Source: an uncultured Syntrophobacteraceae bacterium
GTDB lineage: Bacteria > Desulfobacterota > Syntrophobacteria > Syntrophobacterales > Syntrophobacteraceae
Direction of reading: 5' to 3'
Length of the DNA: 64,000 nt
Assembly (NCBI GenBank): GCA_964623165.1
Contig: CAZURN010000001.1
Location: 134-64,133, forward strand
Each line of letters starts with the position of its first letter. Position 1 is the first letter of the stretch. The notes under the pieces were generated by a model. It was not told where the DNA came from. It saw nothing but the letters and a program-made list of their open reading frames with translations, and made no database searches. This document shows, one piece after another, positions 26,620 through 46,705 of the stretch. The position numbers and the translations under genes are program-made.

Positions 26620-26737
26620 TGCTATGGGTCAAGATCGTGTTGCGCAAAGTCACACGCGCAGCACGGCTTGTGGGCTTGGCGAAGCGGATGGACACAAGGC
26701 CCCAGGCTGTATCAGCTTGACCGTGACTACCTATGAG
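26620..26737 (-). repeat. Intergenic repeat family, copy R (reverse orientation)
   Basis: The reverse complement reads ...CACGGTCAAGCTGATACAGCCTGGGGCCTTGTGTCCATCCGCTTCGCCAAGCCCACAAGCCGTGCTG..., aligning with copies A-E. Confidence 0.7.
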
Positions 26738-26844
26738 AGGGCAGGTTTGCGGACGCGCAAAACGTAGCGGGCTGGTTGGACCGGGAAGAAGCATCGGCTT
26801 CGTTGCAAGGCTGTTGAACCATAGAGACTGCTTCTCTTGAGCTT

Positions 26845-27393
26845 TCAGCGCTGCTCCTTGACCGATCCGGTTCGCCGGCTCGCCATCCTGCCGCTACCCT
26901 TCTTCACCGGCGCTCCCGGGTCGGCCGCGCTTTTCTTTTCCCGCTGGTCCTGAAGGTACTGCTGAAGTTTCACAGGGAGTCCGCGCTTTTTCGCGGATCG
27001 GCTGCGGAGCTTTGTCAGGACCTTCGCCGCAAGGGCCTGTTTGAGGGGGAAGCCCCACTTGCGCTTGTACTCCCGTGGGGTCAACTGATGGGTGCGCAGA
27101 TGATTGGCGGTGATCTGTCTGAACTCGGCGCCACACTCCAGGCACTTGATTCTGTCCTCCTGGATCGAACCGTGGGGGTCAGCGCTCCCCGAGACATCCA
27201 AGTGAATGGCGGACCCTTCGGAGGTCACACCGGTCAATGGAATGGGCTTGCCGTCTTCCTCTGCCCGGCGCAACCTGTGCAGCGCATTGTAGACCCTGAT
27301 GAGGGCCGCCTCCAGCTCCTCCCCGGACATCCTGTTCACACTCGCCTGAGCCTTGACTAGGTCCACGGCGGCTTGCAACAAACTGGTCTCCAT
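26845..27393 (-). CDS. MucR/Ros family transcriptional regulator
   Basis: Zinc-finger core IKCLECGAEFRQITANHLRTHQLTPREYKRKWGFP. AGGAGG RBS before the ATG at 27393. Confidence 0.9.
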   Translation of the reverse strand: METSLLQAAVDLVKAQASVNRMSGEELEAALIRVYNALHRLRRAEEDGKPIPLTGVTSEGSAIHLDVSGSADPHGSIQEDRIKCLECGAEFRQITANHLRTHQLTPREYKRKWGFPLKQALAAKVLTKLRSRSAKKRGLPVKLQQYLQDQREKKSAADPGAPVKKGSGRMASRRTGSVKEQR

Positions 27394-27540
27394 GGGGTCC
27401 CTCCTGTTTGAGTCTCCAGCAACGCATGCCACCATCGGAATTGTGACATCCATTACTCAATGGTGAGGCAGTCTGTATGGCTATCGAGATCGTCTAACAA
27501 CTCATTGCAGTATGATTGTTTATCGTTTGATTGTAAAGGT

Positions 27541-27852
27541 ATGAATCAGGAATACACCGAGAAATTTCTGAAGCTGCTGTTAGAGTGGAGAACAAGAGAC
27601 TTGGTGGGTATGGGTATCAGGAACGTAGAGCTGACTCATCCGGAGCATCAACAACACCTGTCGATGCTCATTGCAGCAGGTTCACTCTACGTTCCAAGAG
27701 GCAATTGGCATGTGTCGAGGAATGAACTTTACATCGGGTCCTGTCGTTCCCGGCTGGCAAGAACTTTCCTAAGTCATCTTGAAGAGCTTTTCCGGGGGGC
27801 GCCGCTCCGGGATATAGACGTACGGCAACTTTCCTTCGTTCCATTCTTTTGA
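27541..27852 (+). CDS. Hypothetical orphan ORF in an AT-rich patch
   Basis: 103-aa ORF (MNQEYTEKFL...) in locally AT-rich DNA. Its 3' end overlaps the convergent FTR gene by 84 nt. No motif found. Confidence 0.2.
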   Translation: MNQEYTEKFLKLLLEWRTRDLVGMGIRNVELTHPEHQQHLSMLIAAGSLYVPRGNWHVSRNELYIGSCRSRLARTFLSHLEELFRGAPLRDIDVRQLSFVPFF

Positions 27853-28107
27853 GACATACAAATTGCAGTAGCAGCTCCCATACTCCTTCACGTCGGGTTC
27901 CCTATACACACATGGGCAGATGATGTCCCTGTCCCACTCCCGGTCGTGGGACGCAAGTCTGCAAGGACAACACATGTATCCGTAGCGGTCTTTGTTGATC
28001 AGGAGACCTTCCAGGAGTTCGAGAACCTTTTGCTTGTCCTTGTTGAAATAATAACCCTTGGGTTCTTGAATCCTTCTCAAATTCTCGTACAGCTGCTCGG
28101 CGTCCAT
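27769..28107 (-). CDS. Ferredoxin:thioredoxin reductase catalytic-subunit-like protein (FTR/FDR type)
   Basis: The CPC...CPC...CYC arrangement (MCCPCRLASHDREWDRDIICPCVYREPDVKEYGSCYCNLY) is typical of the FTR beta chain. The start ATG overlaps the glutaredoxin stop by 1 nt (TAATG). Confidence 0.85.
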   Translation of the reverse strand: MDAEQLYENLRRIQEPKGYYFNKDKQKVLELLEGLLINKDRYGYMCCPCRLASHDREWDRDIICPCVYREPDVKEYGSCYCNLYVSKEWNEGKLPYVYIPERRPPEKLFKMT

Positions 28108-28361
28108 TACAGGTTCAGCGCCTCCTTGATCTCGTCCTGCCGGAAACCCACGATGACCTTGTCGCCAATGATGAGGGTCGGGAAGGAGCAATTGGGATTG
28201 ACCTGTTTGACCTCCTCGATGATCTTCTTTCGCTCTTCTCCTTCCAGTTTATCCACGTCGATGCACTCATATTCCACGCCGCAACCTTTCAGGTATTCCT
28301 TGGTGCTCTTGCAGTGGGAACAGGTACTGAGCGCGTAGAGCTTTATCTCGCATTCCGCCAT
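28107..28361 (-). CDS. Glutaredoxin-like (NrdH/YruB-type) module, possibly translated on its own from an internal start
   Basis: 84 aa: MAECEIKLYALSTCSHCKSTKEYL...FPTLIIGDKVIVGF (CxxC plus cis-Pro region). GGAGGA RBS lies upstream of this ATG. There is no stop codon between it and the upstream DUF2400 frame. Confidence 0.6.
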   Translation of the reverse strand: MAECEIKLYALSTCSHCKSTKEYLKGCGVEYECIDVDKLEGEERKKIIEEVKQVNPNCSFPTLIIGDKVIVGFRQDEIKEALNL

Positions 28362-29285
28362 TTCAACATCCTCCGTTGTCTGGTGCTCCTCCATTGTGGC
28401 CCTGGCCATCGGTCCTCCAGCCCGGACGCAAAAAGGGACGACCCCTGTCTGACCGGTTGCAGACGTTACTCGCCCGCCATTCGTCCTCGGCACTTTACCA
28501 TGAATTCCCATGCGTGTCAGAGCGAAGTCGTACCGAACCGGATCTTTCGGTGCAACACGTCTGAAGCCTTCAGTTATTTCCTCGGCAGCCTGCAGATCCG
28601 CCTGCTTCCTTCGCGTGAAGCCCAGCAGCGACCCGATGCGGTGCATGTGTACGTCCACCGGCACGAGTAAAAGCCTGGGAGCGATCCCCGTCCACACTCC
28701 GGGGTCCACCTCGTCCCGGCGGATCATCCAGCGGAGAAAAAGATGGAGACGCTTGCATGCGCTGCCCCTGTTCGGAGAAGGGATAAACATGGTGTCGTGG
28801 CAGTCCATGTCCTCCCTGAGTTCTCCGGCAAATCGGTTCAAGGCATTCTGAACGGTCGCATCTTCCGGCTTGAGGCCATCCATGAAACAGGCCTCCAGGC
28901 TGCCATACTTCTCAAGCACCTTCCGCATCGATCCCAGGAGCGATGCCAATTGCAGGTCAGTCGTGAAACGGTGCTTGAACCCACGGAAACATACTCTGAA
29001 AGGACCTGCAGAATGCTCCAGAATAAACCGGCGCGGAGAGGGGCCCATGCGTGTCAGTACTTTCGACACGCTCTGATGGATCTGGGCCACTCTGCCGTAG
29101 GCGAGGGCAGACGCAATGAGCCCCACTACTTCCTGGTCCAGTGGGTCATCGTAACGGAGGACAAACTCCAGGGGATCCGGGGGAATGTACCTTCTGCGGT
29201 TGTACCGCTCGTAGAGCCCTTCCAGGAATTCCCTCGTGGGCGTTCCGGATACGGAGTTCTTGCTGAAGTGTTTCTCGTTATCCAT
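28107..29285 (-). CDS. TIGR02757/DUF2400 family protein reading in-frame into the glutaredoxin-like domain (392-aa fusion ORF)
   Basis: A DUF2400-like body (PDPLEFVLRYDDPLDQEVVGLIASALAYGRV ... ACKRLHLFLRWMIRRD ... DVHMHRIG ... YDFALTRMG) is followed by a 45-aa linker and then the Grx module. GGAGG RBS lies 8 nt before the ATG at 29285. The ORF-track start at 29903 is a non-homologous extension. Confidence 0.7.
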   Translation of the reverse strand: MDNEKHFSKNSVSGTPTREFLEGLYERYNRRRYIPPDPLEFVLRYDDPLDQEVVGLIASALAYGRVAQIHQSVSKVLTRMGPSPRRFILEHSAGPFRVCFRGFKHRFTTDLQLASLLGSMRKVLEKYGSLEACFMDGLKPEDATVQNALNRFAGELREDMDCHDTMFIPSPNRGSACKRLHLFLRWMIRRDEVDPGVWTGIAPRLLLVPVDVHMHRIGSLLGFTRRKQADLQAAEEITEGFRRVAPKDPVRYDFALTRMGIHGKVPRTNGGRVTSATGQTGVVPFCVRAGGPMARATMEEHQTTEDVEMAECEIKLYALSTCSHCKSTKEYLKGCGVEYECIDVDKLEGEERKKIIEEVKQVNPNCSFPTLIIGDKVIVGFRQDEIKEALNL

Positions 29286-29393
29286 CACATGGGCCTCCAA
29301 GCATCCGCCAAGAATCCGCCGCGCCGGGAAGACTAACCGGCAAACTTGACTCAGGTCAAGGTCGCCTCTGCCAAATATGGTCAAAAGGCACTT

Positions 29394-29516
29394 GTAACAC
29401 GAAGTCAAGGTCAAGCTGGTGGGCCTCACCGTGGTACCCGTGCGCTTGGCGGCGCCCTCAAAGGGGCAGGCTACACCTTGAACTCTGTGCGATTCCATCC
29501 TGAACACTACTGTGCG
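29394..29516 (+). repeat. Intergenic repeat family, copy A
   Basis: GTAACACGAAGTCAAGGTCAAGCTGGTG ... GCGCTTGGCGGCGCCCTCAAAGGGG ... CTACACCTTGAACTCTGTGCGATTCCATCCTGAAC. Lies 55 nt upstream of the Fe-S protein gene. Confidence 0.7.
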
Positions 29517-29570
29517 CCAGGGACCGTTCAGTTGTGGACGCATTTCCGTGCAGCTCATTGGAGGTAAACG

Positions 29571-30365
29571 ATGCAATGGTCCAGAGAGGCCGAGGAAGCC
29601 ATTTCCAAGGTTCCCTTTTTCGTTCGCAAACGAGTGAGAAAAGGGGTCGACGAGGAAGCCATCCGATCCGGGGTTAGTGAAGTGGGCATGGAACACGTGA
29701 ATGCGTGCCGCGGACGGTTCTTTGAAAACATGGAGGATGAGGTCAAGGGGCACCAGATCGAACGCTGCTTTGGGGCTAGCGAATGCCCCAATCGAGTCAC
29801 GCCTGAAAATGACCTTGAAGAAAAGATACGGCAACTCATGGAACAAAGGAATCTCAAGGAATTTTTGAAGAAAAGAGTGAAGGGGCCGCTCAAGGTTCAC
29901 CATGAATTCCGCATCTCTGTCTCCTACTGTCCCAACGCGTGCTCACGTCCACAAATCGTTGATGTGGGACTCATCGGTGCGTCCAAGCCACAGCCCACAT
30001 CAGTCCAGTGCACTGAATGCGCGGAGTGCATCCAGGTGTGCAGGGAAGGGGCACTCACCCTAATGGACAATTCTGGTGGGCCATCCCTCAATGAGAGCCG
30101 TTGCCTAGGCTGTGGGCAGTGCATTCGGGTGTGCCCGTCAGGAACTCTTGAGGAGGACCGCAAGGGCTATCGGGTTCTCCTGGGAGGAAAGCTGGGGAGG
30201 CATCCTCAGTTGGGTCTGGAACTGCCTGGAGTCTACTCCGAGAGACAGGTTCTAGAACTTCTGGAGAAGTGTCTTGATCACTATATGAGACACAACGAGA
30301 CTGGTGAAAGGTTCGGTGAAGTCATCAATCGAGCGGGCTTGCCGCAGACAATGCGGGATGGCTGA
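29571..30365 (+). CDS. Iron-sulfur protein: PCP_red-like N-domain, nitrite/sulfite-reductase-like 4Fe-4S segment, and 2x[4Fe-4S] ferredoxin insert
   Basis: N-terminus WSREAEEAISKVPFFVRKRVRKGVDEEA (protochlorophyllide reductase 57-kDa-subunit-type domain). Also SYCPNACSRPQI, then CTECAECIQVCREGAL and CLGCGQCIRVCPSG. GGAGG RBS. Confidence 0.75.
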   Translation: MQWSREAEEAISKVPFFVRKRVRKGVDEEAIRSGVSEVGMEHVNACRGRFFENMEDEVKGHQIERCFGASECPNRVTPENDLEEKIRQLMEQRNLKEFLKKRVKGPLKVHHEFRISVSYCPNACSRPQIVDVGLIGASKPQPTSVQCTECAECIQVCREGALTLMDNSGGPSLNESRCLGCGQCIRVCPSGTLEEDRKGYRVLLGGKLGRHPQLGLELPGVYSERQVLELLEKCLDHYMRHNETGERFGEVINRAGLPQTMRDG

Positions 30366-30600
30366 GCCTTGGCTTGCGGGAACCGGCTATCGTATGTCGG
30401 TAACACAGCAAGTACCGTTTGCCATTGCGGTGGAAGTCGGCATGCACACCCCCGCCATTTTCAACGCCGTGAACACTCAAGAACAAAAATTCCTTACTGC
30501 AGCTGGCAAGCCCGTTAACCGTGCCATTCGAAATATTCTTATGCGGCACAACTCTCAACCCCATTTTGATGTGGAAATATACAACCTCCTCACCGTAGTC

Positions 30601-30662
30601 TAGGGCCTTGTGTTCGTGGTGTCGCGTGGCTGTTCGCTCGCAACGACGGGCACAAGGCCCTG
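30601..30662. repeat. Stem-loop whose 11-bp stem carries the repeat-family core sequence
   Basis: AGGGCCTTGTG (30602-30612) is perfectly complementary to CACAAGGCCCT (30651-30661), with a 38-nt loop. Confidence 0.7.
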
Positions 30663-30689
30663 GACTAAAACGTCATTCCAGATCTCATG

Positions 30690-30795
30690 CCAGGTTGAGG
30701 TCAAACTGGTGTGGCGTAGGGTCTTGTGCCTGTCTGCTTCGTGGCGCCTACAAGGGGCTATTGAATGACTTCAATGCGGGGTGCCATCCGAATCT
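30690..30795 (+). repeat. Intergenic repeat family, copy B
   Basis: GAGGTCAAACTGGTGTGGCGTAGGGTCTTGTGCCTGTCTGCTTCGTGGCGCCTACAAGGGGCTATTGAATG.... Ends about 30 nt before the cysC start. Confidence 0.65.
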
Positions 30796-30826
30796 TCTCA
30801 TGGACCGTGGATGATGGGGGATCAAA

Positions 30827-31453
30827 ATGACCGATATCAAAGCGAAAAACATTGTCTGGCACAGTACTCACGTTGAACGATGGGAAAGGGAGCGCCTCCT
30901 GAGACAACAAGGCTGCACCATATGGTTCACGGGACTCCCGGCATCGGGCAAGAGCACCACTTCCTTTTCCCTGGAACACGAACTCATCAAGCGGGGTTAC
31001 TTGGCATACGTCCTGGATGGCGACAATGTTCGTCATGGGCTAAACAGGAACCTGGGCTTTTCCCACGAAGACCGAGAAGAGAACATCCGGCGCATCGGAG
31101 AAGTCGCCAAGTTGTTTGCGGATGCAGGAGTGGTTGTCATGACGAGCTTCATTTCGCCCTACCGCAAGGATCGCAAGATGGCGAGGAAGCTGCATATGGA
31201 TGCAGACCTGCCCTTCATCGAAGTTTTCGTCGATACTCCCGTAGAAATCTGTGAAATGCGCGATCCGAAAGGACTCTACAGAAAGGCAAGACAGGGGGTT
31301 CTCAAGGGATTCACTGGGGTGGATGATCCTTATGAACCCCCCAAGGATCCGGAAATAGTCGTAAACACGATGGACTGTGGTCCCGAGGAATGTGCGGAAC
31401 AGGTCCTGGCTTATCTCATGAAGAATGGAATCATCAAACCCAAGAGCCAGTAA
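30827..31453 (+). CDS. cysC: Adenylyl-sulfate (APS) kinase
   Basis: P-loop GCTIWFTGLPASGKSTTS, then LDGDNVRHGLN and SFISPYRKDR. Confidence 0.93.
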   Translation: MTDIKAKNIVWHSTHVERWERERLLRQQGCTIWFTGLPASGKSTTSFSLEHELIKRGYLAYVLDGDNVRHGLNRNLGFSHEDREENIRRIGEVAKLFADAGVVVMTSFISPYRKDRKMARKLHMDADLPFIEVFVDTPVEICEMRDPKGLYRKARQGVLKGFTGVDDPYEPPKDPEIVVNTMDCGPEECAEQVLAYLMKNGIIKPKSQ

Positions 31454-31565
31454 CACGAAGTTGCAGTCAAGCTGGTGTGGCATAGGCCCTTGTGCCCATG
31501 GCATTCGCCACGCCCTCGACGGGTTGTGCTACGCTTGTAGATCTGCTGGGTAACTCCGTTCAAGG
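31450..31565 (+). repeat. Intergenic repeat family, copy C
   Basis: GTAACACGAAGTTGCAGTCAAGCTGGTGTGGCATAGGCCCTTGTGCCC...GCTACGCTTGTAGATCTGCTGGGTAACTCCGTT. The TAA at its left edge is the cysC stop codon. Confidence 0.7.
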
Positions 31566-31747
31566 ATCTGTCGAAGGATTCGTCACCCTGCAAGATGCGG
31601 TCATCAAGGCAGCCGATAAGCAACCGGGTGATTCATGGCGTTATGGGATGATACCAAAGGATCGCACGGGGGGCATTGCGGTGAGGGACCCTCCGACGGA
31701 AGACATTCCCGATCAACCGCAAACCCAATCCTTCTCCGAAGAGACTG

Positions 31748-32596
31748 CTAAAAACCCACATCCTCCATCGATTCAATTTCCGGAAAGAACTGCTTCATTA
31801 AAGGGGTGCAATATTGTCGCGCTTTCGCCTCAATGTAATGCCGGTCCATTCGACGAAGTAACCCGTACTTTTTCGGATTCTTGAAAGTGTGGGATTTCTC
31901 GAGGACTATGGTGTCGTCGGGAAGGCCGGCGAATTCGGCAATTTCGGATGCGCTCTGTGAGATACGGTCGGTTCTGACGATGAGGAGTCGTTCTCCAGGC
32001 ACGGTTGAAAGGACCTTGCCATTGTGATGGGCCCAATAAGAAAGATAACCGTCAAGCGTGTACAGCCCCTTTTCCTTAAGAAGTTGCTCCTCTGGCGGAT
32101 GGTGGAAGAAATCCGCCCTGAAGCGCAAATTTCTGAGTGCCACCCAATCTCTGCTGGTATTGCGGCGAAGTGAGTCGTTCATGAAAGAATCCAGCCAGCT
32201 GTAGCAGTCTCGAATGGTCAACAGAAAGCGAGCGGTGGGGAACTCCTCCAGGAGCATATCCAGAATGAAGAAATTGAGTTGTGACGAGTCAACATCCAGA
32301 TTCAGTCGCTTGTCTCTATCTCTTATGTAAGACCTGAGTTCAGTCTCGCCAACCCGTCCTTCGGAAACGTCAAGAATAAGTCTGACTAGGGCCTTGCTGT
32401 CTGCTTCATGTTGAGAACGGATATCCTTGCCAAACATGGAGGCAATTGAGTGAGTGCCGCTCTTGGCTGTGCCCACACAATAAAGGTGAGCATTACGAGA
32501 TCTTCTCAGATAGTTGAAGCAGACCGCCGCCCCATTGACTATGCTGCCAAGTGTTCGCTTTAAACTCATTTGCTGGTGTCCCGACTCCTGGATCAT
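31748..32596 (-). CDS. Sulfotransferase family protein
   Basis: PAPS 5'-phosphosulfate-binding loop CVGTAKSGTHSIASMF, and a later LTIRDCYSWLDS segment (3'-phosphate-binding-like). Confidence 0.7.
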   Translation of the reverse strand: MIQESGHQQMSLKRTLGSIVNGAAVCFNYLRRSRNAHLYCVGTAKSGTHSIASMFGKDIRSQHEADSKALVRLILDVSEGRVGETELRSYIRDRDKRLNLDVDSSQLNFFILDMLLEEFPTARFLLTIRDCYSWLDSFMNDSLRRNTSRDWVALRNLRFRADFFHHPPEEQLLKEKGLYTLDGYLSYWAHHNGKVLSTVPGERLLIVRTDRISQSASEIAEFAGLPDDTIVLEKSHTFKNPKKYGLLRRMDRHYIEAKARQYCTPLMKQFFPEIESMEDVGF

Positions 32597-32781
32597 GCGA
32601 TAAGAATCAAAATAATTCGCAGTGTTGTTCCGACGCGATGAATCCTTCGACCCGAAAATGGAGGCTGCCCCATGATATCAAGAAAGGGCACATCATCATT
32701 ACCGAAAACTACTCTCCAACAACGACTGAGATCAGAAGTGGACTGTGTCGAATACACATCGGATCATGGCAGTGAGTACGG

Positions 32782-33861
32782 TCACAGGATCTCAGTGCTC
32801 ACATAATTCACGAACATTTGCATGGTATGATAATGGTGCAAGTTATTCGCACGATAGTGTTCAAAATCATAGGAGAGATATCGATCCAGGTTCCTGTGGT
32901 CGCAAACGGGAAATCCATACGCCTGTGCAAACCCTTTCATTCGGCCATCGACATATGTGAGGAAGGATCTCTTGGCCTGACTGAGGAAGTACAGGTGTGC
33001 ATGCAGTCTGCTCCCAATATGAAGATCAAAGCTTCGATAGAAATCCTGGCACTCATCAACATCTTCGGGAATGTAGATTTCAAAGCCCCTTTCCATGGCA
33101 TATCTGTGCAATTGCGATGGAGTTCTGAGCGACTTCCTCCCGGAAGCCATCCCGAACAATGCCTTGACTGAAGACTCCCGCACTTGTGAATCGAATGCCT
33201 GATGGAGCGAAAGGACTCTGGTGGATCGCTCGAACCGCTCCGCGACGTAATCAATGGTGTTGGTCTCCCTTTCCCAGAAATCATCCCGCTCAGTGACGGT
33301 AACCACAATCCTGGCCAAATTCGCGGAGAATGGAGTCCCGTTCAGGATGCTCTCATCGTAGGCCACAGCGCAGCCGGTCATGAGATACTTCGTAGAGAAT
33401 TCCGGAAGGTTGTCGCGGAGATATTCGATGGTCATCGGGCATCTCCAGGCGGAGAACTTGATCCGGCTGTGAAGCTCACTCAGGATGGTCTTGGTGCTTC
33501 TTGACATGCTTCTGTTCAGTTTCTCATGCCCGTCAATTCCGATAGCGAAGGGGATAATCGGGACCTTTATCTTCTGGACTCCACGTAGACCAAGCTTCGG
33601 GATCACCGAATAGGTGTCGGTCAGCTGATTGGCACCCGCAAGAATCAGTGCCTTTGTGGAATTGATCTGCTGGATCTGCTCTTCCGAGGGTTCATCGCGC
33701 GACGTAAGAACGACGCTGCATTCATGGGGATGTAGAAGCCTTTTGATAGACTTCAGTATGAATCCATCGCCGATATTCCTCTTCTTAGTGGACTGAAGGC
33801 GGAAAGGAACCAAGTACGGCGTCAACACAGAGTAGGACATCGACTCGGCCTCGGCGATCAT
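32782..33861 (-). CDS. Polysaccharide pyruvyl transferase family protein (CsaB/WcaK-like)
   Basis: N-terminal NIGDGFI and ALILAGANQL motifs are typical of PS_pyruv_trans. The start overlaps the upstream GT4 stop (ATGA). Confidence 0.6.
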   Translation of the reverse strand: MIAEAESMSYSVLTPYLVPFRLQSTKKRNIGDGFILKSIKRLLHPHECSVVLTSRDEPSEEQIQQINSTKALILAGANQLTDTYSVIPKLGLRGVQKIKVPIIPFAIGIDGHEKLNRSMSRSTKTILSELHSRIKFSAWRCPMTIEYLRDNLPEFSTKYLMTGCAVAYDESILNGTPFSANLARIVVTVTERDDFWERETNTIDYVAERFERSTRVLSLHQAFDSQVRESSVKALFGMASGRKSLRTPSQLHRYAMERGFEIYIPEDVDECQDFYRSFDLHIGSRLHAHLYFLSQAKRSFLTYVDGRMKGFAQAYGFPVCDHRNLDRYLSYDFEHYRANNLHHYHTMQMFVNYVSTEIL

Positions 33862-35015
33862 GAAGCGAAAGACCTGCTGGAATTCAGCATTGTCTCGTAG
33901 AGCGTCTCCATGTGATGCATCATGGAGGAAGCGCTGAATCGCTCTTGCACCACCGCCAGCCCCTTTTCACCCAACTCCTTGCGGAAGCCCGCGTTCTCAT
34001 GGAGATATAGGATCGAGTCGGCTAGTGCTCCTGCATCCGAAAAGGGGACGGTCAGTCCGTTCACGCCATCCGTGATGATTTCGACGACACCGCCGGCAGG
34101 GGTCGCAACCACGGGAATGGAACAGGACATGGCCTCCAAAAGACTCAGGGGCAGCCCCTCCCACAGGGACGGAAAGGCGAAGACATCGAAGGTTCTCAGA
34201 ATCTCAGGAATATCCCGTCTGGAACCGAGAAGGAGCACGCATTCTTCAAGACTTTCCTCTTCAATGGCTTTCTTGAGGTTTGGCAGCAGAGGTCCGGCGC
34301 CAACGATGATGACTCGGAGGTTAGCAATGGCATCCTTCAACCGTTTGGCCGCATTCACCAGGAAAATGTGGCCCTTCTGGTCTGTCAGTCTGCCAACAGT
34401 GCCGACTACGAAGGCATCCCTCGGGATGCGCAGTCTGTCCCTGGCCTCCTCCCTTGTCAGTAGGGAGGACTGTCCGTTCAAATCGATGCCGTTATGGATC
34501 AGTTCGATTTTCAGTGGGTCCAGCCAGTCCCTCTTGGTGATGTAGTCCCTGACCATTCCCGATACTGCAATGACTTTGTGTGTCTTCTTTGCCAGCAGCC
34601 AGTTGATGACACGCCTTTTGAACTTATAAGTCTGGTACACATTGTGTTCGGTTGCAACAACTGGGACACCGGTCATAATGGCAGCAAGACGTCCATATAG
34701 ATTGGAATGATATAGGTGGGTATGTATGATATCAATTTTATACTTGTGAATGATCTTGATAATTCTAAAACAAATGAATATATTGAATGACTTGCTGAAA
34801 TTCCCCAGCTCTATTAATTCAAAACCTAGAGATTCTATCTCTTCCCCGATCTTCCCTTTATCTCTTATGCAGCAAACAATAGGTCTGTATCGGTTTAGAT
34901 CCATATTCATCAAGGATGTCAAAAGAAGTTGTTCGGCACCTCCAATAGGTAAAGAAACGTAAATATAAAGTATATTTATATTTTTATCCTTGAATTTCAT
35001 GCGACATATATTCAT
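33858..35015 (-). CDS. Glycosyltransferase family 4 (GT-B, group 1)
   Basis: N-terminal LPIGGAEQ with a C-terminal EGLPLSLLEAMSCSIPVVATPAGG...E motif set. The 5' 300 nt or so are strikingly AT-rich. The start may be Met6. Confidence 0.88.
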   Translation of the reverse strand: MNICRMKFKDKNINILYIYVSLPIGGAEQLLLTSLMNMDLNRYRPIVCCIRDKGKIGEEIESLGFELIELGNFSKSFNIFICFRIIKIIHKYKIDIIHTHLYHSNLYGRLAAIMTGVPVVATEHNVYQTYKFKRRVINWLLAKKTHKVIAVSGMVRDYITKRDWLDPLKIELIHNGIDLNGQSSLLTREEARDRLRIPRDAFVVGTVGRLTDQKGHIFLVNAAKRLKDAIANLRVIIVGAGPLLPNLKKAIEEESLEECVLLLGSRRDIPEILRTFDVFAFPSLWEGLPLSLLEAMSCSIPVVATPAGGVVEIITDGVNGLTVPFSDAGALADSILYLHENAGFRKELGEKGLAVVQERFSASSMMHHMETLYETMLNSSRSFAS

Positions 35016-35281
35016 CTTAATATAGGTTCATTATTACATATTTTTCAAATAAGTACACAGCGGTAATGTGGTCAATTTGATGGAAATTTTATATGCAATC
35101 AGTTGAGCTTAAATAGTATATCTCCAATTGTCATGATGGAAGCAAATTACGAAAGAGAGAGCATAGGCACAAAATAAAAAAGTCTTTAGTATAGAAGGTA
35201 TATAAATGTCCTTCATATCTATATATAAACGAATCGCATGACTCAGGAAAAAAGCCATATGACCTATAAGTAACTAATACA

Positions 35282-35851
35282 TTAATCTTTGACAAATCTG
35301 TAAATATTGTGAGAGTTCCATTCATCAGTGTGGTCTATCCTGAAGCCGTTTGTCTCGAAAATCTTTTCCAGTTCAGCAGAGCTGTAATCATTTACCCAAC
35401 CATTGGCACGTCTATTCATTTTTTTAGGTCGATGGTCCGTAACGGCATAAGAGACAACAATCGCATTGACATATTTAGCCAAGTGAAGCACCAACCGTGG
35501 GACATCGTTGATATACTCCAGAACTCCAATCAATACGGCGACGTCATGCTTTGGAAAGTCTGGCAGGTTTCGCTGATTGAGATTGCAGACGATGGTCCCG
35601 TTTCCTCTGTCGATGAGATCGGATGGCGTGTAAGTGCAGCCTTCTCCAAGGCAATCCTTGAGCACCATTCGCCCCGCACCGAATTCCAAAACAGACTTTC
35701 CATGCGGTATCAGCGAAGCTATGTACCGGGTACGAGAATCCCATTTTGGGGACAAGTTTGAAAGCCCGTCCCATTTTTGAAAATCGGCTTTGCCCAAACA
35801 TTTACGAAGAGAGGTCTTATATGCGTCGATGACGGTTTTCAAGAAAGGCAC
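35282..35851 (-). CDS. Class I SAM-dependent methyltransferase
   Basis: Motif I VLEFGAGRMVL followed by TPSDL, and later VAVLIGVLEYI. Confidence 0.7.
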   Translation of the reverse strand: MPFLKTVIDAYKTSLRKCLGKADFQKWDGLSNLSPKWDSRTRYIASLIPHGKSVLEFGAGRMVLKDCLGEGCTYTPSDLIDRGNGTIVCNLNQRNLPDFPKHDVAVLIGVLEYINDVPRLVLHLAKYVNAIVVSYAVTDHRPKKMNRRANGWVNDYSSAELEKIFETNGFRIDHTDEWNSHNIYRFVKD

Positions 35852-36052
35852 ATCGTATCCTTGGTTGAATTCATGCGACGATTACAGTACGCTGCAGAAG
35901 TTCACCTTTCAGAATGATCTTGCAACGCGAGCATACAGACGGAAAACGGGCATGTCAACGTCGGGAAGCGCACGCGGCGGTCAGGATTGGTGATAGGCAG
36001 GACAGTCCTTGGGAAGTCTTGTCGATAGTGCGAGGCATGCGAGTGGGGGAAC

Positions 36053-36922
36053 ATGACCTATCGAATGCACGCTTCAATACATGCATTGGGCAGGGTAATC
36101 AAGCGAGGCCTGCGCTACTCGGTATTCCTTTACCGACAGGCTGCAAATCGATTTCGTGCCTTGCCCCACTTCATAATTCTTGGAGCACAGAAATCTGGAA
36201 CCACGAGCCTGTTTTCCTATTTGTCCCAGCATCCCCAAATCTTTCCAAGTCTTACAAAAGAAGTGCATTTCTTCGACGGGGGACTGAATCCCCATGTCGA
36301 CAACTATGTGAAAGGAATCCGTTGGTATCGAGCCCACTTTCCCTACAACAGCAGCTTGTGCAATGGTTGTATAACTGGAGAGGCATCTCCGCTGTATCTC
36401 TATAATCCACTTGCCCCAGGTCGCATTTTCAATCTGTTGCCGGACGTCAAACTGATCGCCATTTTAAGAAATCCAACTGAAAGAGCAATCTCTCATTACT
36501 ATCACGTGAAAAGGTTGAACATGGAGCCCTTACCCATCATGGAGGCGTTCCAGGAAGAGGATTCGCGATTAAGGCCAGCAATGAGAGAAATGAATTATAA
36601 AAGTATTGAGTATATGTATTACTCTTATAAGATGCGTGGACTTTACAGACAACAAATAGACAGATACTTACAGCATTTTGATATGAATCAATTGCTCATT
36701 CTTGACAGTGAGACTTTCTTTAGTGATCCTGCAACCACGTTGAAGAGAGTCTTTGACTTCCTCGGAGTCGATGGAAAATTTCAAGTGAGAGATCTTAAGC
36801 CGAAGAACGTTGGATCAAACAAGACGAAAGTCAGTTCACGAGTTTATGAATACCTTAACGCTTATTTTTCGCCTCATAACGAGGAATTGTATCAGTTGCT
36901 CGGCAAGGCACTGAGTTGGTAA
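36053..36922 (+). CDS. Sulfotransferase domain protein (heparan-sulfate-N-sulfotransferase-like fold)
   Basis: 5'-PSB loop HFIILGAQKSGTTSLFSYL and 3'-PB motif ILRNPTERAISHYYH. Confidence 0.85.
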   Translation: MTYRMHASIHALGRVIKRGLRYSVFLYRQAANRFRALPHFIILGAQKSGTTSLFSYLSQHPQIFPSLTKEVHFFDGGLNPHVDNYVKGIRWYRAHFPYNSSLCNGCITGEASPLYLYNPLAPGRIFNLLPDVKLIAILRNPTERAISHYYHVKRLNMEPLPIMEAFQEEDSRLRPAMREMNYKSIEYMYYSYKMRGLYRQQIDRYLQHFDMNQLLILDSETFFSDPATTLKRVFDFLGVDGKFQVRDLKPKNVGSNKTKVSSRVYEYLNAYFSPHNEELYQLLGKALSW

Positions 36923-37002
36923 CGGGGGCCAATGTGTTTGTCCTGCCCTGGAACGCGAATTCCTAACGGTCGATCTGCTCCATGGATATCCATCGAGACT
37001 TT

Positions 37003-38285: not shown

Positions 38286-38410
38286 GATAAGAAGCTACAG
38301 CCAAGCTGGTGTAGCATAGGGCCTTGAGCCCGCCCGCTTCGCAGTGCCTACAGGGGTTTGTGCTGCTCTTGAACTCTGCTCGCTTCGATCGTGAACCCAA
38401 CTCCGTATGC
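38286..38410 (+). repeat. Intergenic repeat family, copy D
   Basis: ATAAGAAGCTACAGCCAAGCTGGTGTAGCATAGGGCCTTGAGCCCGCCCGCTTCGCAGTGCCTACAGGGG...CTCTTGAACTCTGCTCGCTTCGATCGTGAACCCAACTCCGTATG. Confidence 0.7.
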
Positions 38411-43566: not shown

Positions 43567-43596
43567 CTTTCTTGACTCCCTCCGGACATGACTCCG

Positions 43597-45375
43597 CTAA
43601 TCGCGGGCGGCTTCCTCATTTGTGGAAGTGGTGCTCGAATCGAACTGGGACAACTGGAGTTCATAAAGCCGCCGATACTCGCTCGCCGTGCGCATGAGGA
43701 GTTCATGACTCCCTTCCTCGACGATTTGCCCATCGGCAAGGGCCACGATGCGATGAGCATTCTGAATCGTCGAGAGCCGGTGGGCGATGACGAGGGTGGT
43801 CCTGCCCACCATGAGATTCTCGAGTGCCTTCTGCACCTCGAGTTCCGATTCGCTGTCCAGGGAGGAAGTGGCTTCATCCAGGATGAGTATAGGCGCGTTC
43901 TTGAGGATCGCTCGGGCAATGCAGAGCCGCTGCCGCTCACCGCCTGAGAGCCTTACGCCCTGTTCGCCAATCATCGTTTCGAACCCCTGGGGCATCCTCA
44001 TGATGAAGTCATACGCATGTGCAGCCTTGGCTGCCGCCTGGATCTCCTCCTCTGATTTTCCACTGCTGCCATACGCGATGTTGTTGCGCACTGTGTCGTT
44101 GAAAAGAAAGGGTTGTTGGGTGACGAGGCCGATCTGGCCCCTCAGGGAAGCGAGGGTCGCCTCACGGATGTCCGTGCCATCAATGAGAATGGCCCCCTGG
44201 TCGACATCATGGAATCTTGGGATGAGGCTCACCAAGGTGGATTTGCCTGCACCGCTCACCCCGACAATGGCCACCACCTCTCCAGCCCTGACCTTCAGAT
44301 TGATGCCCGAGAGAACTGCCTTGTCTCCATAACAAAACGTGACGTTCCTGAATTCGATGTTTTCTCTCATGGGGGCGAGGGTGACGGCGTTGGGCTTCTC
44401 CTGGATCTCTGGCTGAGTGTCCAGGATTTCGAACACCCTGATCCCGGCAGCCAGACCCTGCTGTATGGCATTGTATACGTTGGTGAGGCGCTTCACCGGT
44501 TCATAGAGCATGATGACCGCAGCGAGAAAGGAAAAGAAGTTGCCCGGCGTGGACTTGCCTTGAATGACGCTGTAGCCGCCGTAAACGATGATGGCCACGA
44601 TGCCGATCCCCCCGAGGAACTCCATGAGGGGGGATGAAAGGGCCCGAATGGAAACGGACCTCATGCTGTGCTCGAAGAATTTCCTATTGTCCTCCGCGAA
44701 CCGCTTCTTTTCGTAGTCCTCCATGCAAAACGCTTTGACGATGCGATGCCCAGTGATGGTCTCGTGCAGGATCACGGAAAGGTTGCCATACGTCTGCAGG
44801 GTGCTTGAAATCGTGCGCCGCAGCATACGGCCGAACCTGACCAGGGGGAGAAAAGCCACTGGGAGCACCGCGATGGCGATCATGGCCAGTTGCCAGTCCC
44901 TGTAGAAGACCACCACAAGGAGCCCCACTATGCTGAAGCAATCTTTCAGGAGCCCGGTGATGGAATCAGACACGGCGGACTGCATCTGATTCACGTCATT
45001 GACGATACGGGCCATGATGGAGCCGGTTTGAGTCTTGTCGTAAAAAGAAACGGAAAGATCCTGGAGGTGATCGTAGAGATCCTGACGCAGCTGCGCCACG
45101 ATGCTTTGACCCACGTGGCTCATGAAGTACGTGTTCCCCCAAGTGCACAGGCCCTTGACGATAAAAACAACCAGCACAGCCAGGGAAAGCAGTTCAAGCA
45201 TGTCCATCTTCTTGTTCACGAAGATGTCGTCCAGGACGGGTTTCACCAGGTAGGCGGATGCTCCGCTGGTGCCCGCCACTCCCAGCATGCAGACCATCGC
45301 TAGCATGAGCCTTCGCCAATGGGGCTTGGCAAGCTTCAGCAGTCGGGTATAGACTCCCACCAGTTCCTTGTTCAT
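43597..45375 (-). CDS. msbA: Lipid A export ABC transporter, fused permease/ATPase
   Basis: Six-TM N-domain, Walker A GVSGAGKST, signature LSGGERQR, Walker B ILILDEATS. The start ATG at 45375 overlaps the upstream stop (ATGA). The ORF-track start adds 86 non-homologous residues. Confidence 0.88.
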   Translation of the reverse strand: MNKELVGVYTRLLKLAKPHWRRLMLAMVCMLGVAGTSGASAYLVKPVLDDIFVNKKMDMLELLSLAVLVVFIVKGLCTWGNTYFMSHVGQSIVAQLRQDLYDHLQDLSVSFYDKTQTGSIMARIVNDVNQMQSAVSDSITGLLKDCFSIVGLLVVVFYRDWQLAMIAIAVLPVAFLPLVRFGRMLRRTISSTLQTYGNLSVILHETITGHRIVKAFCMEDYEKKRFAEDNRKFFEHSMRSVSIRALSSPLMEFLGGIGIVAIIVYGGYSVIQGKSTPGNFFSFLAAVIMLYEPVKRLTNVYNAIQQGLAAGIRVFEILDTQPEIQEKPNAVTLAPMRENIEFRNVTFCYGDKAVLSGINLKVRAGEVVAIVGVSGAGKSTLVSLIPRFHDVDQGAILIDGTDIREATLASLRGQIGLVTQQPFLFNDTVRNNIAYGSSGKSEEEIQAAAKAAHAYDFIMRMPQGFETMIGEQGVRLSGGERQRLCIARAILKNAPILILDEATSSLDSESELEVQKALENLMVGRTTLVIAHRLSTIQNAHRIVALADGQIVEEGSHELLMRTASEYRRLYELQLSQFDSSTTSTNEEAARD

Positions 45376-46466
45376 TCGCGCGTTTCTTCCATGAGCTCTT
45401 TCGCTGCAGAAAGCACGTCCTCCACCGTGATGGCTTTCATGCACCGGTGATCGGTAGGACATACCCTTTTTAGGCAGGGAGAACAATCCGCTGCTTTGCG
45501 CACCATGCGCCACCTGTCCGTGAAGGGAGAGGTCGTGGTGTGGTCTGTGGGGCCGAAGAGGGCGACTACGGGCACCCTGAGGGCAGCCGCCACGTGCATG
45601 GGACCAGAGTCGTTGGTGATGAGAAGGCGGCATCGGGAGAGCAGCGCCACAAGCTGGCGCACCGTGGTCTTGCCGACCATGTTCAAGACTTCGGTCGGTC
45701 GGGCTTGGACAGCCGCCTCGATTGCCTGACCGATGGCAGCCTCTCCAGGACTGCCGACCAGCACAATGCGGGCTTCATCATCCTGAATGAGTGCTGCCGC
45801 AACCTTGGCGAACCCTGCCGGGACCCATCGTTTGGCAGACCCATAGGTGGCACCGGGATTGATCGCGATCCAGAATCCCTTTCCCAGCAACTGGCTTGCC
45901 CACAATTCCTCTTTGGGAGTGCAATGGAGACGAAGCCCTCCGTCGCCGCCACTCACCCCGAGTGCTTCCAACATCTTCACGTAATAGTCCGTGTGATGCA
46001 GTGCCTTTGCAGCTCGCCCCACGGGGACTCCGTGGGTGAGTAGGGCACCTCTGCAATCTGTCCGGTACCCGGCGCGGACAGGAATTCTCGCCAAATAGGC
46101 CAAGAGTGCCGCCTCCAGTGCGTTCTGAAAAAGGATCGCCAGGTCAAATCCCTGATGGCGAAGTCCCATTGCGAAACGAAAGAACCCGGGTATCCCCCGG
46201 TGAGTCCCTCCCTTGTCAAAAACCACAACTTCGTCGCAAAGAGGGTGGGGGTTGAACAGCTCAGCCACCAGCGGATTCGCCATCACCGAAATCCGGCTTT
46301 CAGGAAAGGTGGCTCTCACGGCCGCCATGGCCGGTGTCGTCATGACTGCGTCCCCGATCCAGTTGGTGGAGCGGATGAGGATCTTTCGAACAGGAGGGTC
46401 GCGTCCAAGTGTTTTCATAATCATATCAACAAATAAAGAAGACTGCGAAGTGCAGTCTTGGGTCAA
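45372..46466 (-). CDS. Glycosyltransferase family 9 (heptosyltransferase II/WaaF-like)
   Basis: KILIRSTNWIGDAVMTTP and ITNDSGPMHVAAAL. The true start is probably Met15 or Met17. Confidence 0.85.
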   Translation of the reverse strand: MTQDCTSQSSLFVDMIMKTLGRDPPVRKILIRSTNWIGDAVMTTPAMAAVRATFPESRISVMANPLVAELFNPHPLCDEVVVFDKGGTHRGIPGFFRFAMGLRHQGFDLAILFQNALEAALLAYLARIPVRAGYRTDCRGALLTHGVPVGRAAKALHHTDYYVKMLEALGVSGGDGGLRLHCTPKEELWASQLLGKGFWIAINPGATYGSAKRWVPAGFAKVAAALIQDDEARIVLVGSPGEAAIGQAIEAAVQARPTEVLNMVGKTTVRQLVALLSRCRLLITNDSGPMHVAAALRVPVVALFGPTDHTTTSPFTDRWRMVRKAADCSPCLKRVCPTDHRCMKAITVEDVLSAAKELMEETRE

Positions 46467-46581
46467 TCATGATTCATCGGCATTGATGAGTTGCTGCGCA
46501 TAGCGACGAGTCAGACTCGCGGAGCTGAACCGTCACATCGGTGATGGTCGGGAAACAGGCTAATGTTTCGAGCACTTGGGT

Positions 46582-46705
46582 GTGATACGAAGTTCCGGTC
46601 AAGCTGGTGCAACCCAGGGCCTTGCAACTGCCCGATTCGCGGCGCCCACAAGCTAGGCTATATCTTGAAGTCTGCTCGGTTCAATCTCTTGTGAAACTCC
46701 GTATG
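46582..46705 (+). repeat. Intergenic repeat family, copy E
   Basis: GTGATACGAAGTTCCGGTCAAGCTGGTGCAACCCAGGGCCTTGCAACTGCCCGATTCGCGGCGCCCACAAGC...ATCTTGAAGTCTGCTCGGTTCAATCTCTTGTGAAACTCCGTATG. Confidence 0.7.

What the first reader, a model, noticed from the sequence alone, without database searches (positions are those of the whole stretch)
26620..46705. Roughly 120-nt intergenic repeat family with at least six copies that I cannot assign to any known element
Six alignable copies lie only in intergenic DNA:
- A: 29394-29516 (+)
- B: 30690-30795 (+)
- C: 31450-31565 (+)
- D: 38286-38410 (+)
- E: 46582-46705 (+)
- R: 26620-26737 (-)

There is also a core-only hairpin at 30601-30662 and a probable tail fragment near 48200-48246 (CCTTGTGAAACCTCCG).

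Shared blocks, in order, are (T)AACACGAAGT, GGTCAAGCTGGTG, TAGGGCCTTGTG, CCGCTTCGC, GCCCACAAGG, GCTA..CTTGAA.TCTGCTCG.TTC and GTGAA(C)..AACTCCGTATG.

The CCTTGTG and CACAAGG blocks are complementary. That hairpin is perfect in the 30601 copy and decayed in the others.

Five of the six copies carry a stop triplet (TAA, TGA or TAG) at the left edge. In copy C that triplet is the real cysC stop codon.

Copies flank the Fe-S/cysC pair and both ends of the glycan island. No transposase or RAYT gene is in the window. The family could be a REP/MITE-like element, a structured sRNA or 3'UTR family, or a recombination scar.
Basis: seen in the sequence. Interest (0 to 1): 0.62.

Follow-up and report, generated by a model that had tools for sequence, protein, structure and literature searches.

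The report
Decayed mobile repeats with REP core
The repeats are worn-out copies of a small non-coding jumping element built around a pair of REP palindromes, so the kind is known, though this REP pair and its transposase gene also turn up in unrelated bacterial phyla.

Summary
The repeat family is real. There are seven full-length copies, one more than reported, plus one solo hairpin, and all are intergenic. The proposed tail fragment at 48200 is not supported.

In relatives the element is intact: about 125 bp, with 18-20 bp terminal inverted repeats and a duplicated 3-bp TNA target. About 24 of 25 intact copies carry the same TNA on both sides. This explains both the "stop triplet at the left edge" and the terminal "ATG". 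Copy A is a clean insertion that is missing from the orthologous site in the closest genome.

The CCTTGTG/CACAAGG hairpin is a head-to-head pair of GTAG-type REP units (a REPIN). The same units flank all 8 RAYT (Y1 transposase) genes I examined, in Chloroflexota, in Syntrophobacteraceae and in the window's closest relative. The same core sits inside at least five different inverted-repeat frames and in tandem arrays across phyla.

None of the seven full-length window copies folds better than shuffled sequence, so they are relics rather than maintained RNAs. No Rfam family or published sequence matches.

Verdict: a MITE-like element with a REPIN core, a new variant of known kinds. The parent transposase was not found, and no RAYT gene lies in the window.

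The parts
5638..5763 (-). It is the best-preserved copy in the window. The TIR is ATACGAAGTTGC / GCAACTGCGTAT and the flanking triplets are CAA/TGA (decayed duplication).
   Evidence: CM R1 110.5 bits; sequence; flanks; RNA fold z = -1.5.
26617..26735 (-). Copy R, lying between the radical-SAM gene and the 3' end of the Ros/MucR gene. The flanking duplication TCA/TCA is intact.
   Evidence: CM R1 78.2 bits; target-site duplication; fold z = +0.34.
29396..29519 (+). Copy A, in the divergent intergenic region between the DUF2400-glutaredoxin gene (-) and the NIR_SIR/4Fe-4S gene (+). It is a clean ~122-nt insertion relative to the orthologous site in the closest genome.
   Evidence: CM R1 90 bits; filled versus empty site alignment with L037; synteny.
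30595..30668 (-). Solo REP dimer (REPIN-like hairpin) with a 17-bp stem and no outer frame. One arm carries the exact conserved AGGGCCTTGTGCCCGTC. It overlaps the TAG stop of a 69-aa ORF.
   Evidence: CM R2 36.9 bits on the minus strand against 26.3 on the plus strand; DNA fold z = -5.4; sequence.
30686..30814 (+). Copy B, the most degraded copy, ending 12 nt before the cysC start codon. The left triplet is TCA and the right end is uncertain.
   Evidence: CM R1 41.7 bits; core matched by R2 at 30717-30760.
31452..31575 (+). Copy C. Its left TNA duplication (TAA, 31451-31453) is the cysC stop codon. The right end is decayed.
   Evidence: CM R1 83.6 bits; flanks; cysC Pfam hit; C-terminal alignment of cysC homologs.
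38286..38410 (+). Copy D, between the GT4 glycosyltransferase gene (-) and the Kdo/WaaP-type kinase gene (+). Its left REP unit is the best preserved in the window (GTAGCATAGGGCCTTGAGCCCG, 1 mismatch to T1).
   Evidence: CM R1 96.5 bits; R2 35.5 bits; REP unit match.
46584..46706 (+). Copy E, between the GT9 heptosyltransferase gene and the periplasmic-binding-protein gene. The flanking duplication TGA/TGA is intact.
   Evidence: CM R1 101.8 bits; target-site duplication; fold z = -0.48.

Best explanation
The ~125-nt repeats are old, mutationally decayed copies of a non-autonomous mobile element that has two layers.

**Outer layer: a MITE-type frame**
- It has 18-20-bp terminal inverted repeats: TACCAAGTTGCGTTCAAG...CTTGAACGCAACTTGGTA in intact relatives, and TACGAAGTTGCAGTCAAG... 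in the subfamily nearest the window.
- It inserts at a TNA triplet and duplicates it.
- Every TNA is a stop codon on one strand or the other. Insertion exactly at a gene's stop codon therefore regenerates the stop, which makes such insertions harmless (copy C at cysC; L074 in the relative).

**Inner layer: a REPIN**
- It is a head-to-head heterodimer of two GTAG-type REP units, T1 (GTAGCATAGGGCCTTGTGCCCG) and inverted T2 (GTAGCATAGCCCCTTGTGGGCG), separated by a variable spacer.
- These are the same units that flank a conserved single-gene RAYT (Y1/HUH transposase) in relatives.

**Shown**
- The repeat family is real.
- The TIRs and the target-site duplication exist.
- One filled-versus-empty orthologous site exists.
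- The REP units are associated with RAYT genes.
- The window copies have lost their fold.

**Inferred**
- The whole unit was moved in trans by a DDE-type transposase that makes 3-bp staggered cuts. TNA duplication is typical of some IS5-family groups, a point that rests on my own knowledge.
- The REPIN core was either captured by the frame or inserted into it, and owes its sequence conservation to recognition by the RAYT.
- In the window's genome the copies are now inert relics, whose only likely effect is added length in untranslated regions.
For: **The family is real and dispersed**
- establish the family in the window.
- Near-identical copies (93-98%) lie at unrelated loci of the closest genome, MAG CAVOPT01.
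- More copies lie in Syntrophobacteraceae and Desulfarculales MAGs.

**Target-site duplication**
- Identical TNA on both sides in 8 of 9 copies in the closest MAG, in L093, and in window copies E and R.
- Identical TNA on both sides in 13 of 13 further intact copies.

**Terminal inverted repeats:** a perfect 18-bp TIR in intact copies.

**Empty site:** copy A is missing as a whole unit at the orthologous site, and the flanks on both sides are conserved.

**The core is a REP dimer**
- T1/T2 units lie within about 150 nt on both sides of 8 of 8 RAYT genes examined.
- Sources annotate homologs as 'REP element-mobilizing transposase RayT'.
- The architecture matches the published definition of GTAG REPs, head-to-head dimers, heterodimers and REPtrons (PMC3733652).

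**Decay in the window:** the intact consensus folds with z = -8.1, while the window copies range from z = +1.2 to -1.5.

**Presence in RNA:** contigs from two metatranscriptome runs contain the element with other flanks, which is consistent with transcription, though DNA carry-over in such runs cannot be excluded.
Against: - **No parent element.** No autonomous IS with matching termini was found in three pattern scans or in the loci held. The DDE transposase is therefore inferred from the duplication alone.
- **Atypical termini.** The termini (TAC...GTA) do not look like the G-starting ends I recall for IS5-family elements (memory, not tested).
- **No core-less frame-1 copy seen.** However, the sample was selected for the core.
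- **No RAYT or transposase tied to the window.** None is in the window, and none could be linked to the window's own genome.
- **Only one empty-site comparison succeeded.** The attempt for copy R did not align.
- **Some duplications are unreadable.** In four window copies (5638, A, C, D) the duplication is no longer readable on both sides, and copy B's right end is uncertain.
Confidence: 0.78

Rival explanations
1. The unit is a pure REPIN moved only by the RAYT. On this reading the outer inverted repeats are either an extension of the REPIN hairpin or a palindromic target into which REP dimers insert, and no DDE transposase is involved.
For: - The REP units flank RAYT genes in 8 of 8 loci.
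- The same core sits in at least five different palindromic frames and in tandem arrays.
- Frame-2 inverted repeats also occur with other cargo, including a different GTAG REP.
- Published cases report REP dimers 'inserted within long palindromic sequences' (PMC3733652).
- No DDE parent element was found.
Against: - A 3-bp duplication with a variable middle base that matches on both sides in about 24 of 25 intact copies is not what Y1/HUH transposition produces. From my own knowledge of IS200/IS605, these elements make no duplication.
- The empty site lacks the frame and the core together.
- Every frame-1 pair seen carries the core at a fixed position.
Confidence: 0.13
2. The repeats are a family of structured RNAs, such as 3'UTR stabilisers, terminators or sRNAs, kept by selection on RNA structure.
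For: - The intact consensus is a very stable hairpin (z = -8.1).
- Copies lie mostly next to gene ends.
- Metatranscriptome contigs contain the element.
- The apical stem differs between subfamilies by paired changes.
Against: - No Rfam match, even at E <= 1.
- Orientation relative to neighbouring genes is neutral, 21 against 24.
- Covariation barely exceeds the controls, and the alignment was fitted to the structure.
- All seven full window copies fold no better than shuffles.
- There is no U-tract after the hairpin.
- The sequence, not just the structure, is conserved across phyla.
Confidence: 0.05
3. The repeats are a local duplication artefact or a recombination scar confined to this region.
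For: Seven copies lie within 41 kb, and several border the cysC and glycan gene blocks.
Against: - The same element occurs at unrelated loci in several other genomes and in metagenomes.
- Copies carry their own target-site duplications.
- A relative with a syntenic cysC-glycan island has no copies at all.
Confidence: 0.01

Closest known systems
GTAG-type REP head-to-head dimers / REPINs with their RAYT (REPtrons), as described for Pseudomonas, Stenotrophomonas, E. coli and others (PMC3733652, PMC3337134)
   Same: - Units of about 22 nt start with GTAG and are followed by a short GC-rich palindrome.
- Two units in inverted orientation, with GTAG on the outside, are separated by a variable spacer.
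- The dimer is a heterodimer: the two stems are swapped, GGGC/GCCC against GCCC/GGGC.
- Copies are intergenic and include singletons and tandem arrays.
- The same units flank a roughly 160-aa Y1_Tnp gene on both sides.
   Different: - The REP pair is almost invariant across Chloroflexota and Desulfobacterota, and the RAYTs share 54-78% identity across those phyla. The REPIN papers whose abstracts were listed describe REPINs as inherited only vertically; that REP sequences differ from species to species is from my own knowledge.
- In the window's lineage the dimer sits inside a larger unit that has its own TIRs and a target-site duplication.
[quoted passage not shown]
   Same: A REP dimer lies at the centre of a longer, family-specific palindromic sequence. 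As in those cases, no core-less copy of the frame-1 outer palindrome was seen.
   Different: That paper reports no target-site duplication and treats the palindrome as a target. Here the outer unit has a proven TNA duplication and an empty orthologous site, so frame and core move together.
Bacterial MITEs such as Correia/NEMIS, ERIC, RUP, Nezha and Chunjie of Geobacter uraniireducens (PMC10969869)
   Same: - Size is 100-250 bp with no coding capacity.
- They have TIRs and a target-site duplication.
- They are intergenic, form a long hairpin, are co-transcribed with neighbouring genes, and show size variants and truncated copies.
   Different: - This family is not Chunjie, which is 178-235 bp.
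- No parent IS is known.
- The interior is a RAYT-associated REP dimer rather than IS-derived sequence.
Elements that duplicate TNA: some IS5-family groups in bacteria, and PIF/Harbinger with Tourist MITEs in eukaryotes (from my own knowledge; PMC4482050 for the superfamily)
   Same: A 3-bp TNA target-site duplication and short TIRs.
   Different: No DDE transposase was found, and the termini start with TAC rather than G. Membership is therefore not established.

Membership tests
MITE (miniature inverted-repeat transposable element) | Short (under about 300 bp), non-coding and multi-copy | tested here: met
   Units are 119-130 bp. There are 7 copies in the window, at least 13 in MAG CAVOPT01 and more in other MAGs.
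MITE (miniature inverted-repeat transposable element) | Terminal inverted repeats | tested here: met
   Intact copies have a perfect 18-bp TIR. The best window copy has 10 of 12 positions. The other window copies are decayed.
MITE (miniature inverted-repeat transposable element) | Target-site duplication flanking each copy | tested here: met
   TNA with an identical middle base on both sides in about 24 of 25 intact copies. In the window this holds for E (TGA) and R (TCA).
MITE (miniature inverted-repeat transposable element) | Presence/absence at orthologous sites | tested here: met
   Copy A against the empty site in L037. This is a single case; the attempt for copy R was uninformative.
MITE (miniature inverted-repeat transposable element) | A cognate autonomous IS with matching ends | tested here: inconclusive
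   No IS was found in exact-pattern scans of genome and viral contigs or in the loci held. The scans need exact 18-mers and are capped.
GTAG-type REP / REPIN | A 20-40-nt unit with GTAG at one end followed by an imperfect GC-rich palindrome | tested here: met
   T1 is GTAG-CATA-GGGC-CTTGT-GCCC-G and T2 is GTAG-CATA-GCCC-CTTGT-GGGC-G. In the window the units carry 1-4 mismatches.
GTAG-type REP / REPIN | Two units in inverted orientation with a spacer, forming one long hairpin (head-to-head dimer) | tested here: met
   An alignment of 35 dimers has spacers from nearly 0 to about 20 nt, and longer spacers occur elsewhere. The predicted fold has conserved GG/GG and CC/CC internal loops.
GTAG-type REP / REPIN | A RAYT (Y1_Tnp) gene flanked by the same REPs (REPtron) in the genome | tested here: inconclusive
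   Met in relatives: 8 of 8 RAYT loci, including the window's closest genome. No RAYT lies in the window, and none could be traced to the window's own genome.
GTAG-type REP / REPIN | Mobilisation by the RAYT, with cleavage at GTAG on single-stranded DNA | not testable with these tools
   This needs biochemistry or an in vivo assay.
Rfam structured RNA families | A match to a curated covariance model | tested here: not met
   0 hits at the gathering threshold in the window. No relevant hit at E <= 1 on six loci with intact elements.
IS5-family-derived element | A DDE transposase of the family with matching TIRs; TNA duplication in some groups | tested here: inconclusive
   The TNA duplication is met. 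No transposase was found. The termini were not compared with ISfinder, which is not available here.

The most novel reading that the evidence does not exclude
One RAYT-REP pair, kept almost letter for letter, has moved between Chloroflexota and Desulfobacterota that share anoxic habitats. Its REPIN has repeatedly become the centre of unrelated MITE frames that make target-site duplications.

This could happen in two ways. The REPIN could insert into the exposed apex of MITE hairpins, or MITEs could capture it. Either way, a REPIN normally regarded as vertically inherited would gain a second, DDE-driven route of spread and a way to cross lineages.
Probability: 0.3. Interest if true: 0.62.

Novelty: new variant of a known kind. 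Interest (0 to 1): 0.42.

Why it matters
For the window itself the result is housekeeping. The repeats are relics of a mobile element. They should not be annotated as RNA genes, and the small ORFs called across them are probably spurious.

The insertions sit at gene boundaries of the sulfate-activation and glycan clusters. They explain several odd features: a stop codon shared with a repeat, and apparent ATG triplets at repeat ends.

The wider point is of interest to people who study mobile DNA. REPINs and RAYTs are described as long-term, vertically inherited residents (abstracts listed); that their REP sequences are species-specific is from my own knowledge. Here one REP pair and its RAYT are shared by distant phyla, and the REPIN sits inside elements that carry the hallmarks of cut-and-duplicate transposition.

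If confirmed, this system could be used to test how REP dimers come to lie inside long palindromes, an association that was noted in 2013 and left unexplained.

Tried and rejected
- **Rfam.** The window at the gathering threshold and six loci with intact elements at E <= 1 gave nothing relevant.
- **tRNA/tmRNA scan.** Nothing found.
- **5' leader ending in a start codon.** Rejected. The terminal ATG is the element's TA plus a TGA duplication, and no ORF starts there.
- **Parent IS.**
  - The exact left-end scan returned only MITE copies plus chance hits.
  - A 1.8-kb insertion next to a copy in L068 holds small ORFs with no obvious transposase among their translations; I did not run Pfam on them.
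  - The truncated copy in L006 is not an IS end.
  - The plasmid BLAST was empty.
  - The viral-contig hit L273 is a chance 18-mer inside what looks like a phage portal gene.
- **Metagenome contig scan.** Only one true copy among 60 hits.
- **Phage origin of the hairpin.** 2 of 11 viral-contig hits look genuine and the rest look like chance.
- **Recurrent neighbouring protein.** Clustering the ORFs of 107 loci gave only generic paralogs, namely an ABC ATPase and a histidine kinase. The RAYT was found only by a motif search.
- **RNA evidence for the window's own locus.** No RNA runs were found. The DNA contigs of the sludge runs are too fragmentary to show insertion polymorphism.
- **RAYT in the window's own population.** The three closest RAYT homologs come from other samples.
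- **Literature search for the sequences.** Only unrelated primer matches.
- **Chunjie MITE of Geobacter.** A different size, 178-235 bp.
- **loxP resemblance.** The left end shares the 10-mer AACTTCGTAT with a loxP arm. I judged this a coincidence and did not pursue it.

Full report
**1. The observation**

- The repeat finder recovers them and adds a copy at about 5695-5762 on the minus strand.
- A 19-base degenerate pattern taken from the alignment matches five sites with up to 3 mismatches, against 0.02 expected from shuffles.
- A covariance model (R1) built from window copies and copies in a related genome was run without filters. It finds seven full-length copies:
  - 5638-5763(-)
  - 26617-26735(-)
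  - 29396-29519(+)
  - 30686-30814(+)
  - 31452-31575(+)
  - 38286-38410(+)
  - 46584-46706(+)
- R1 also gives a weak hit on the core-only hairpin at 30596-30668.
- The proposed tail fragment at 48200-48246 is not detected by either model. It lies inside the ORF of a periplasmic binding protein.
- Gene calls supported by Pfam place every copy in intergenic DNA. The long ORF across copy A is an over-extension of a DUF2400-glutaredoxin gene, whose domains start well downstream.

**2. Where the window comes from**

- The window is 56% G+C.
- Its sequence is held by sludge and wastewater metagenome runs.
- The closest genome among the species representatives is the MAG 'uncultured delta proteobacterium MFD00032.bin.1.221' (CAVOPT01).
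  - Its NIR_SIR protein is 73% identical to the window's.
  - Gene order is collinear over window 26904-30369.
- The cysC protein's nearest named relatives are a Deltaproteobacteria MAG (83%) and a Syntrophobacteraceae MAG (77%).

**3. The intact element**

In CAVOPT01 the same element occurs at unrelated loci as copies that are 93-98% identical to each other. These copies show what the decayed window copies hide.

- The unit starts TACGAAGTTGCAGTCAAG and ends CTTGAACGCAACTCAGTA, which form imperfect terminal inverted repeats.
- In Syntrophobacteraceae and Desulfarculales MAGs the ends are a perfect 18-bp inverted repeat, TACCAAGTTGCGTTCAAG / CTTGAACGCAACTTGGTA.
- Each copy is flanked by the triplet TNA, and the middle base is the same on both sides:
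  - 8 of 9 CAVOPT01 copies, one metagenome copy, and window copies E (TGA) and R (TCA);
  - 13 of 13 further intact copies in other genomes.
- By chance the middle base would match one time in four, so this is a true 3-bp target-site duplication.

- The 'stop triplet at the left edge' is the duplicated TNA. Every TNA is a stop codon on one strand or the other.
  - In copy C the left TAA is the cysC stop codon.
  - In L074 the right TCA is the TGA stop of the convergent gene.
- The terminal '...CCGTATG' block is the element's last bases, GTA, followed by TGA.

**4. Evidence of insertion**

- The intergenic region between the DUF2400 gene and the NIR_SIR gene aligns well between the window and CAVOPT01.
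- The exception is about 122 nt that are present only in the window and coincide with copy A.
- The frame and the hairpin are absent together, so the whole unit is what moved.
- A second comparison, downstream of the MucR gene for copy R, did not align well enough to use.
- A more distant relative has a syntenic cysC-glycan island and no copies in 16 kb.

**5. The hairpin is a REP dimer**

The hits are in Anaerolineae and other Chloroflexota, Syntrophobacteraceae, Desulfarculales and a Zixibacteria MAG.

- *The conserved module.* It is GTAGCATAGGGCCTTGTGCCCGTC, a spacer that is short (under about 20 nt) in most copies but reaches tens of nt in some, and then CGCCCACAAGGGGCTATGCTAC. The right arm was not part of the search pattern, though the complete modules were picked with a loose pattern for it, and it is nearly as invariant as the left.
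- *The predicted structure.* It is a 19-bp hairpin with two conserved 2x2 internal loops, GG/GG and CC/CC. The loops arise because the two arms are not exact inverted copies. The left arm reads GGGC-CTTGT-GCCC and the complement of the right arm reads GCCC-CTTGT-GGGC.
- *Its settings.* The module sits at the centre of at least five different inverted-repeat frames. It also occurs in tandem arrays with periods of 55 to 122 nt.
- *The link to a transposase.* A motif search for Y1 transposases in the loci held found a Y1_Tnp gene in a Chloroflexia MAG (Pfam E = 8e-8). It has two modules upstream and two downstream, and one of them overlaps its stop codon.
- *The homologs.* They are about 161 aa long, and some are named 'REP element-mobilizing transposase RayT' by their source.
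  - One homolog, P0240, lies on the 1.16-Mb contig of CAVOPT01, the window's closest relative.
  - In all eight RAYT loci I examined, single units T1 (GTAGCATAGGGCCTTGTGCCCG) or T2 (GTAGCATAGCCCCTTGTGGGCG) lie within about 150 nt on both sides of the gene.
  - These loci include two named Syntrophobacteraceae, with contigs of 2.9 and 1.2 Mb.
- *The match to published work.* This is the published definition of a REPtron. The module itself is a head-to-head heterodimer of GTAG-type REPs, that is, a REPIN (PMC3733652; PMC3337134, listed). The same paper notes, without explanation, that REP dimers in Anabaena variabilis and Halothiobacillus neapolitanus lie inside long family-specific palindromes.

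**6. State of the window copies**

- The hairpin model R2 recognises the cores of copies D, B, C and R, and weakly that of the 5638 copy (E = 0.28). It also recognises the solo hairpin at 30595-30668, best on the minus strand.
- The REP units in the window carry 1-4 mismatches to T1 or T2.
- The intact consensus folds far better than shuffles (z = -8.1), as does the core alone (z = -5.5).
- None of the seven full window copies folds better than shuffles: z = +0.83, -0.09, +0.34, -1.54, +0.21, +1.18 and -0.48. The solo hairpin still does, at z = -5.4.
- The full copies are therefore relics and are not maintained for their structure.

**7. RNA or DNA element?**

- No Rfam family matches.
- On the model-fitted alignment of 21 copies, 86% of cells pair against 83.5% in shuffles. 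The clearest double changes are one difference between subfamilies in the apical stem, counted several times. This is weak evidence.
- Among 69 complete modules, the core lies somewhat more often beside gene 3' ends than beside 5' ends (45 against 29). It shows no preference for the sense strand (21 against 24). These counts rest on crude ORF calls.
- Metatranscriptome contigs do contain the element with various flanks, so copies are probably transcribed as parts of longer RNAs. These contigs carry no strand information, and DNA carry-over cannot be excluded.
- No RNA runs were found for the window's own locus.

**8. What moves it**

- The TNA duplication points to a transposase that makes 3-bp staggered cuts. 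From my own knowledge this fits some IS5-family groups and PIF/Harbinger, and does not fit Y1/HUH enzymes, which leave no duplication.
- I could not find the enzyme.
  - Exact scans for the ends returned only non-coding copies and chance matches.
  - Nothing turned up next to copies.
- This step is therefore inferred.
- The rival view is that the RAYT moves everything, or that REP dimers insert into palindromic frames. It keeps some weight for two reasons:
  - the same core occurs in several unrelated frames;
  - the Anaerolineae frame (CTAGCAGCCTGTCGGAGA...) also occurs with other cargo, once with a different GTAG REP.

**9. Distribution and possible transfer**

- The RAYT of the deltaproteobacterial MAG is 65-78% identical to most of its listed homologs. 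These include proteins labelled Anaerolineae (69%) and Syntrophobacteraceae (69%). It is 54% identical to the Chloroflexia protein used as the first query.
- Together with the near-identity of the REP units across these phyla, this suggests transfer between phyla that share anoxic sludge, peat and sediment habitats.
- I did not build a tree, so this remains a suggestion.

**10. Verdict**

- The element is not an unknown class. It is a MITE-like unit with a REPIN core, related to described GTAG REP systems.
- It is a new variant in two respects: a proven target-site duplication around a REP dimer, and a REP-RAYT pair shared across phyla.
- In the window itself the copies are decayed and probably inert.

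Noticed in passing
window 53538-53605: A long, nearly perfect palindrome with arms of about 26 bp (TTCGAACTTCCATGTCCACCCGCCC ... GGGCGGACATGGAAGTTCGAA). It lies near the 5' end of the 51909-53645(-) ORF. It is unrelated to the repeat family and appeared only as a weak model hit.
   Followed up: partly
window 31700-37000: The block of glycan genes (sulfotransferase, polysaccharide pyruvyl transferase, GT4 and others) has clearly lower third-position G+C (0.26-0.63) than the rest of the window (about 0.7). This suggests a horizontally acquired or fast-evolving surface-glycan island. Copies C and D lie at its two borders.
   Followed up: no
window 16376-20752 (-): A 1458-aa ORF holds an internal repeat with a period of about 390 nt (family D2 of the repeat finder; copies at 17532, 17904, 18303, 18690 and 19293).
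   Followed up: no
window 26845-27453 (-): A Ros/MucR-family regulator (Pfam E = 3e-30) in what looks like a Desulfobacterota genome. It is conserved in the closest MAG.
   Followed up: no
window 26217-26366: In all four sludge runs, a high-depth contig (58-107x, against 2-5x for the rest of the window) matches only the two sides of a 148-nt stretch of the radical-SAM gene. It probably comes from a much more abundant organism with a related gene.
   Followed up: no
L261 4800-4940: Upstream of the RAYT gene of MAG CAVOPT01 there are six tandem copies of a 25-nt unit (CAAATTAGGACCCGTAGCCTAGCTT). Each copy contains the GTAG start of a truncated REP unit.
   Followed up: no
L213 4661-4800; L177 1907-2050: The Anaerolineae inverted-repeat frame (CTAGCAGCCTGTCGGAGA...) also occurs without the conserved core. 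In one case it holds a different GTAG palindrome (GTAGCGGCTTTCCATAGCCGCC) and in the other it holds unrelated sequence.
   Followed up: partly
L030 5766-6136; L068 849-995 and 6885-7014; L194, L210, L220: MAG CAVOPT01 holds further short repeat families. One of them carries the same REP dimer in another frame (...hairpin-AGAATGCATCTCTCACGCAA).
   Followed up: partly
window 5752-5763 and the left end of intact copies: The reverse complement of the left end (GCAACTTCGTAT) shares the 10-mer AACTTCGTAT with the loxP arm ATAACTTCGTATA. I took this as coincidence. A joined right-end/left-end junction would form an inverted repeat around TATNATA.
   Followed up: no
L181 7681-7840; L235 5801-7446; L229 4688-5212; L218 810-1750: In several Chloroflexota MAGs the REP dimers form tandem arrays with periods of 55, 122, about 92 and about 60-120 nt. 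These are reminiscent of BIME clusters.
   Followed up: no
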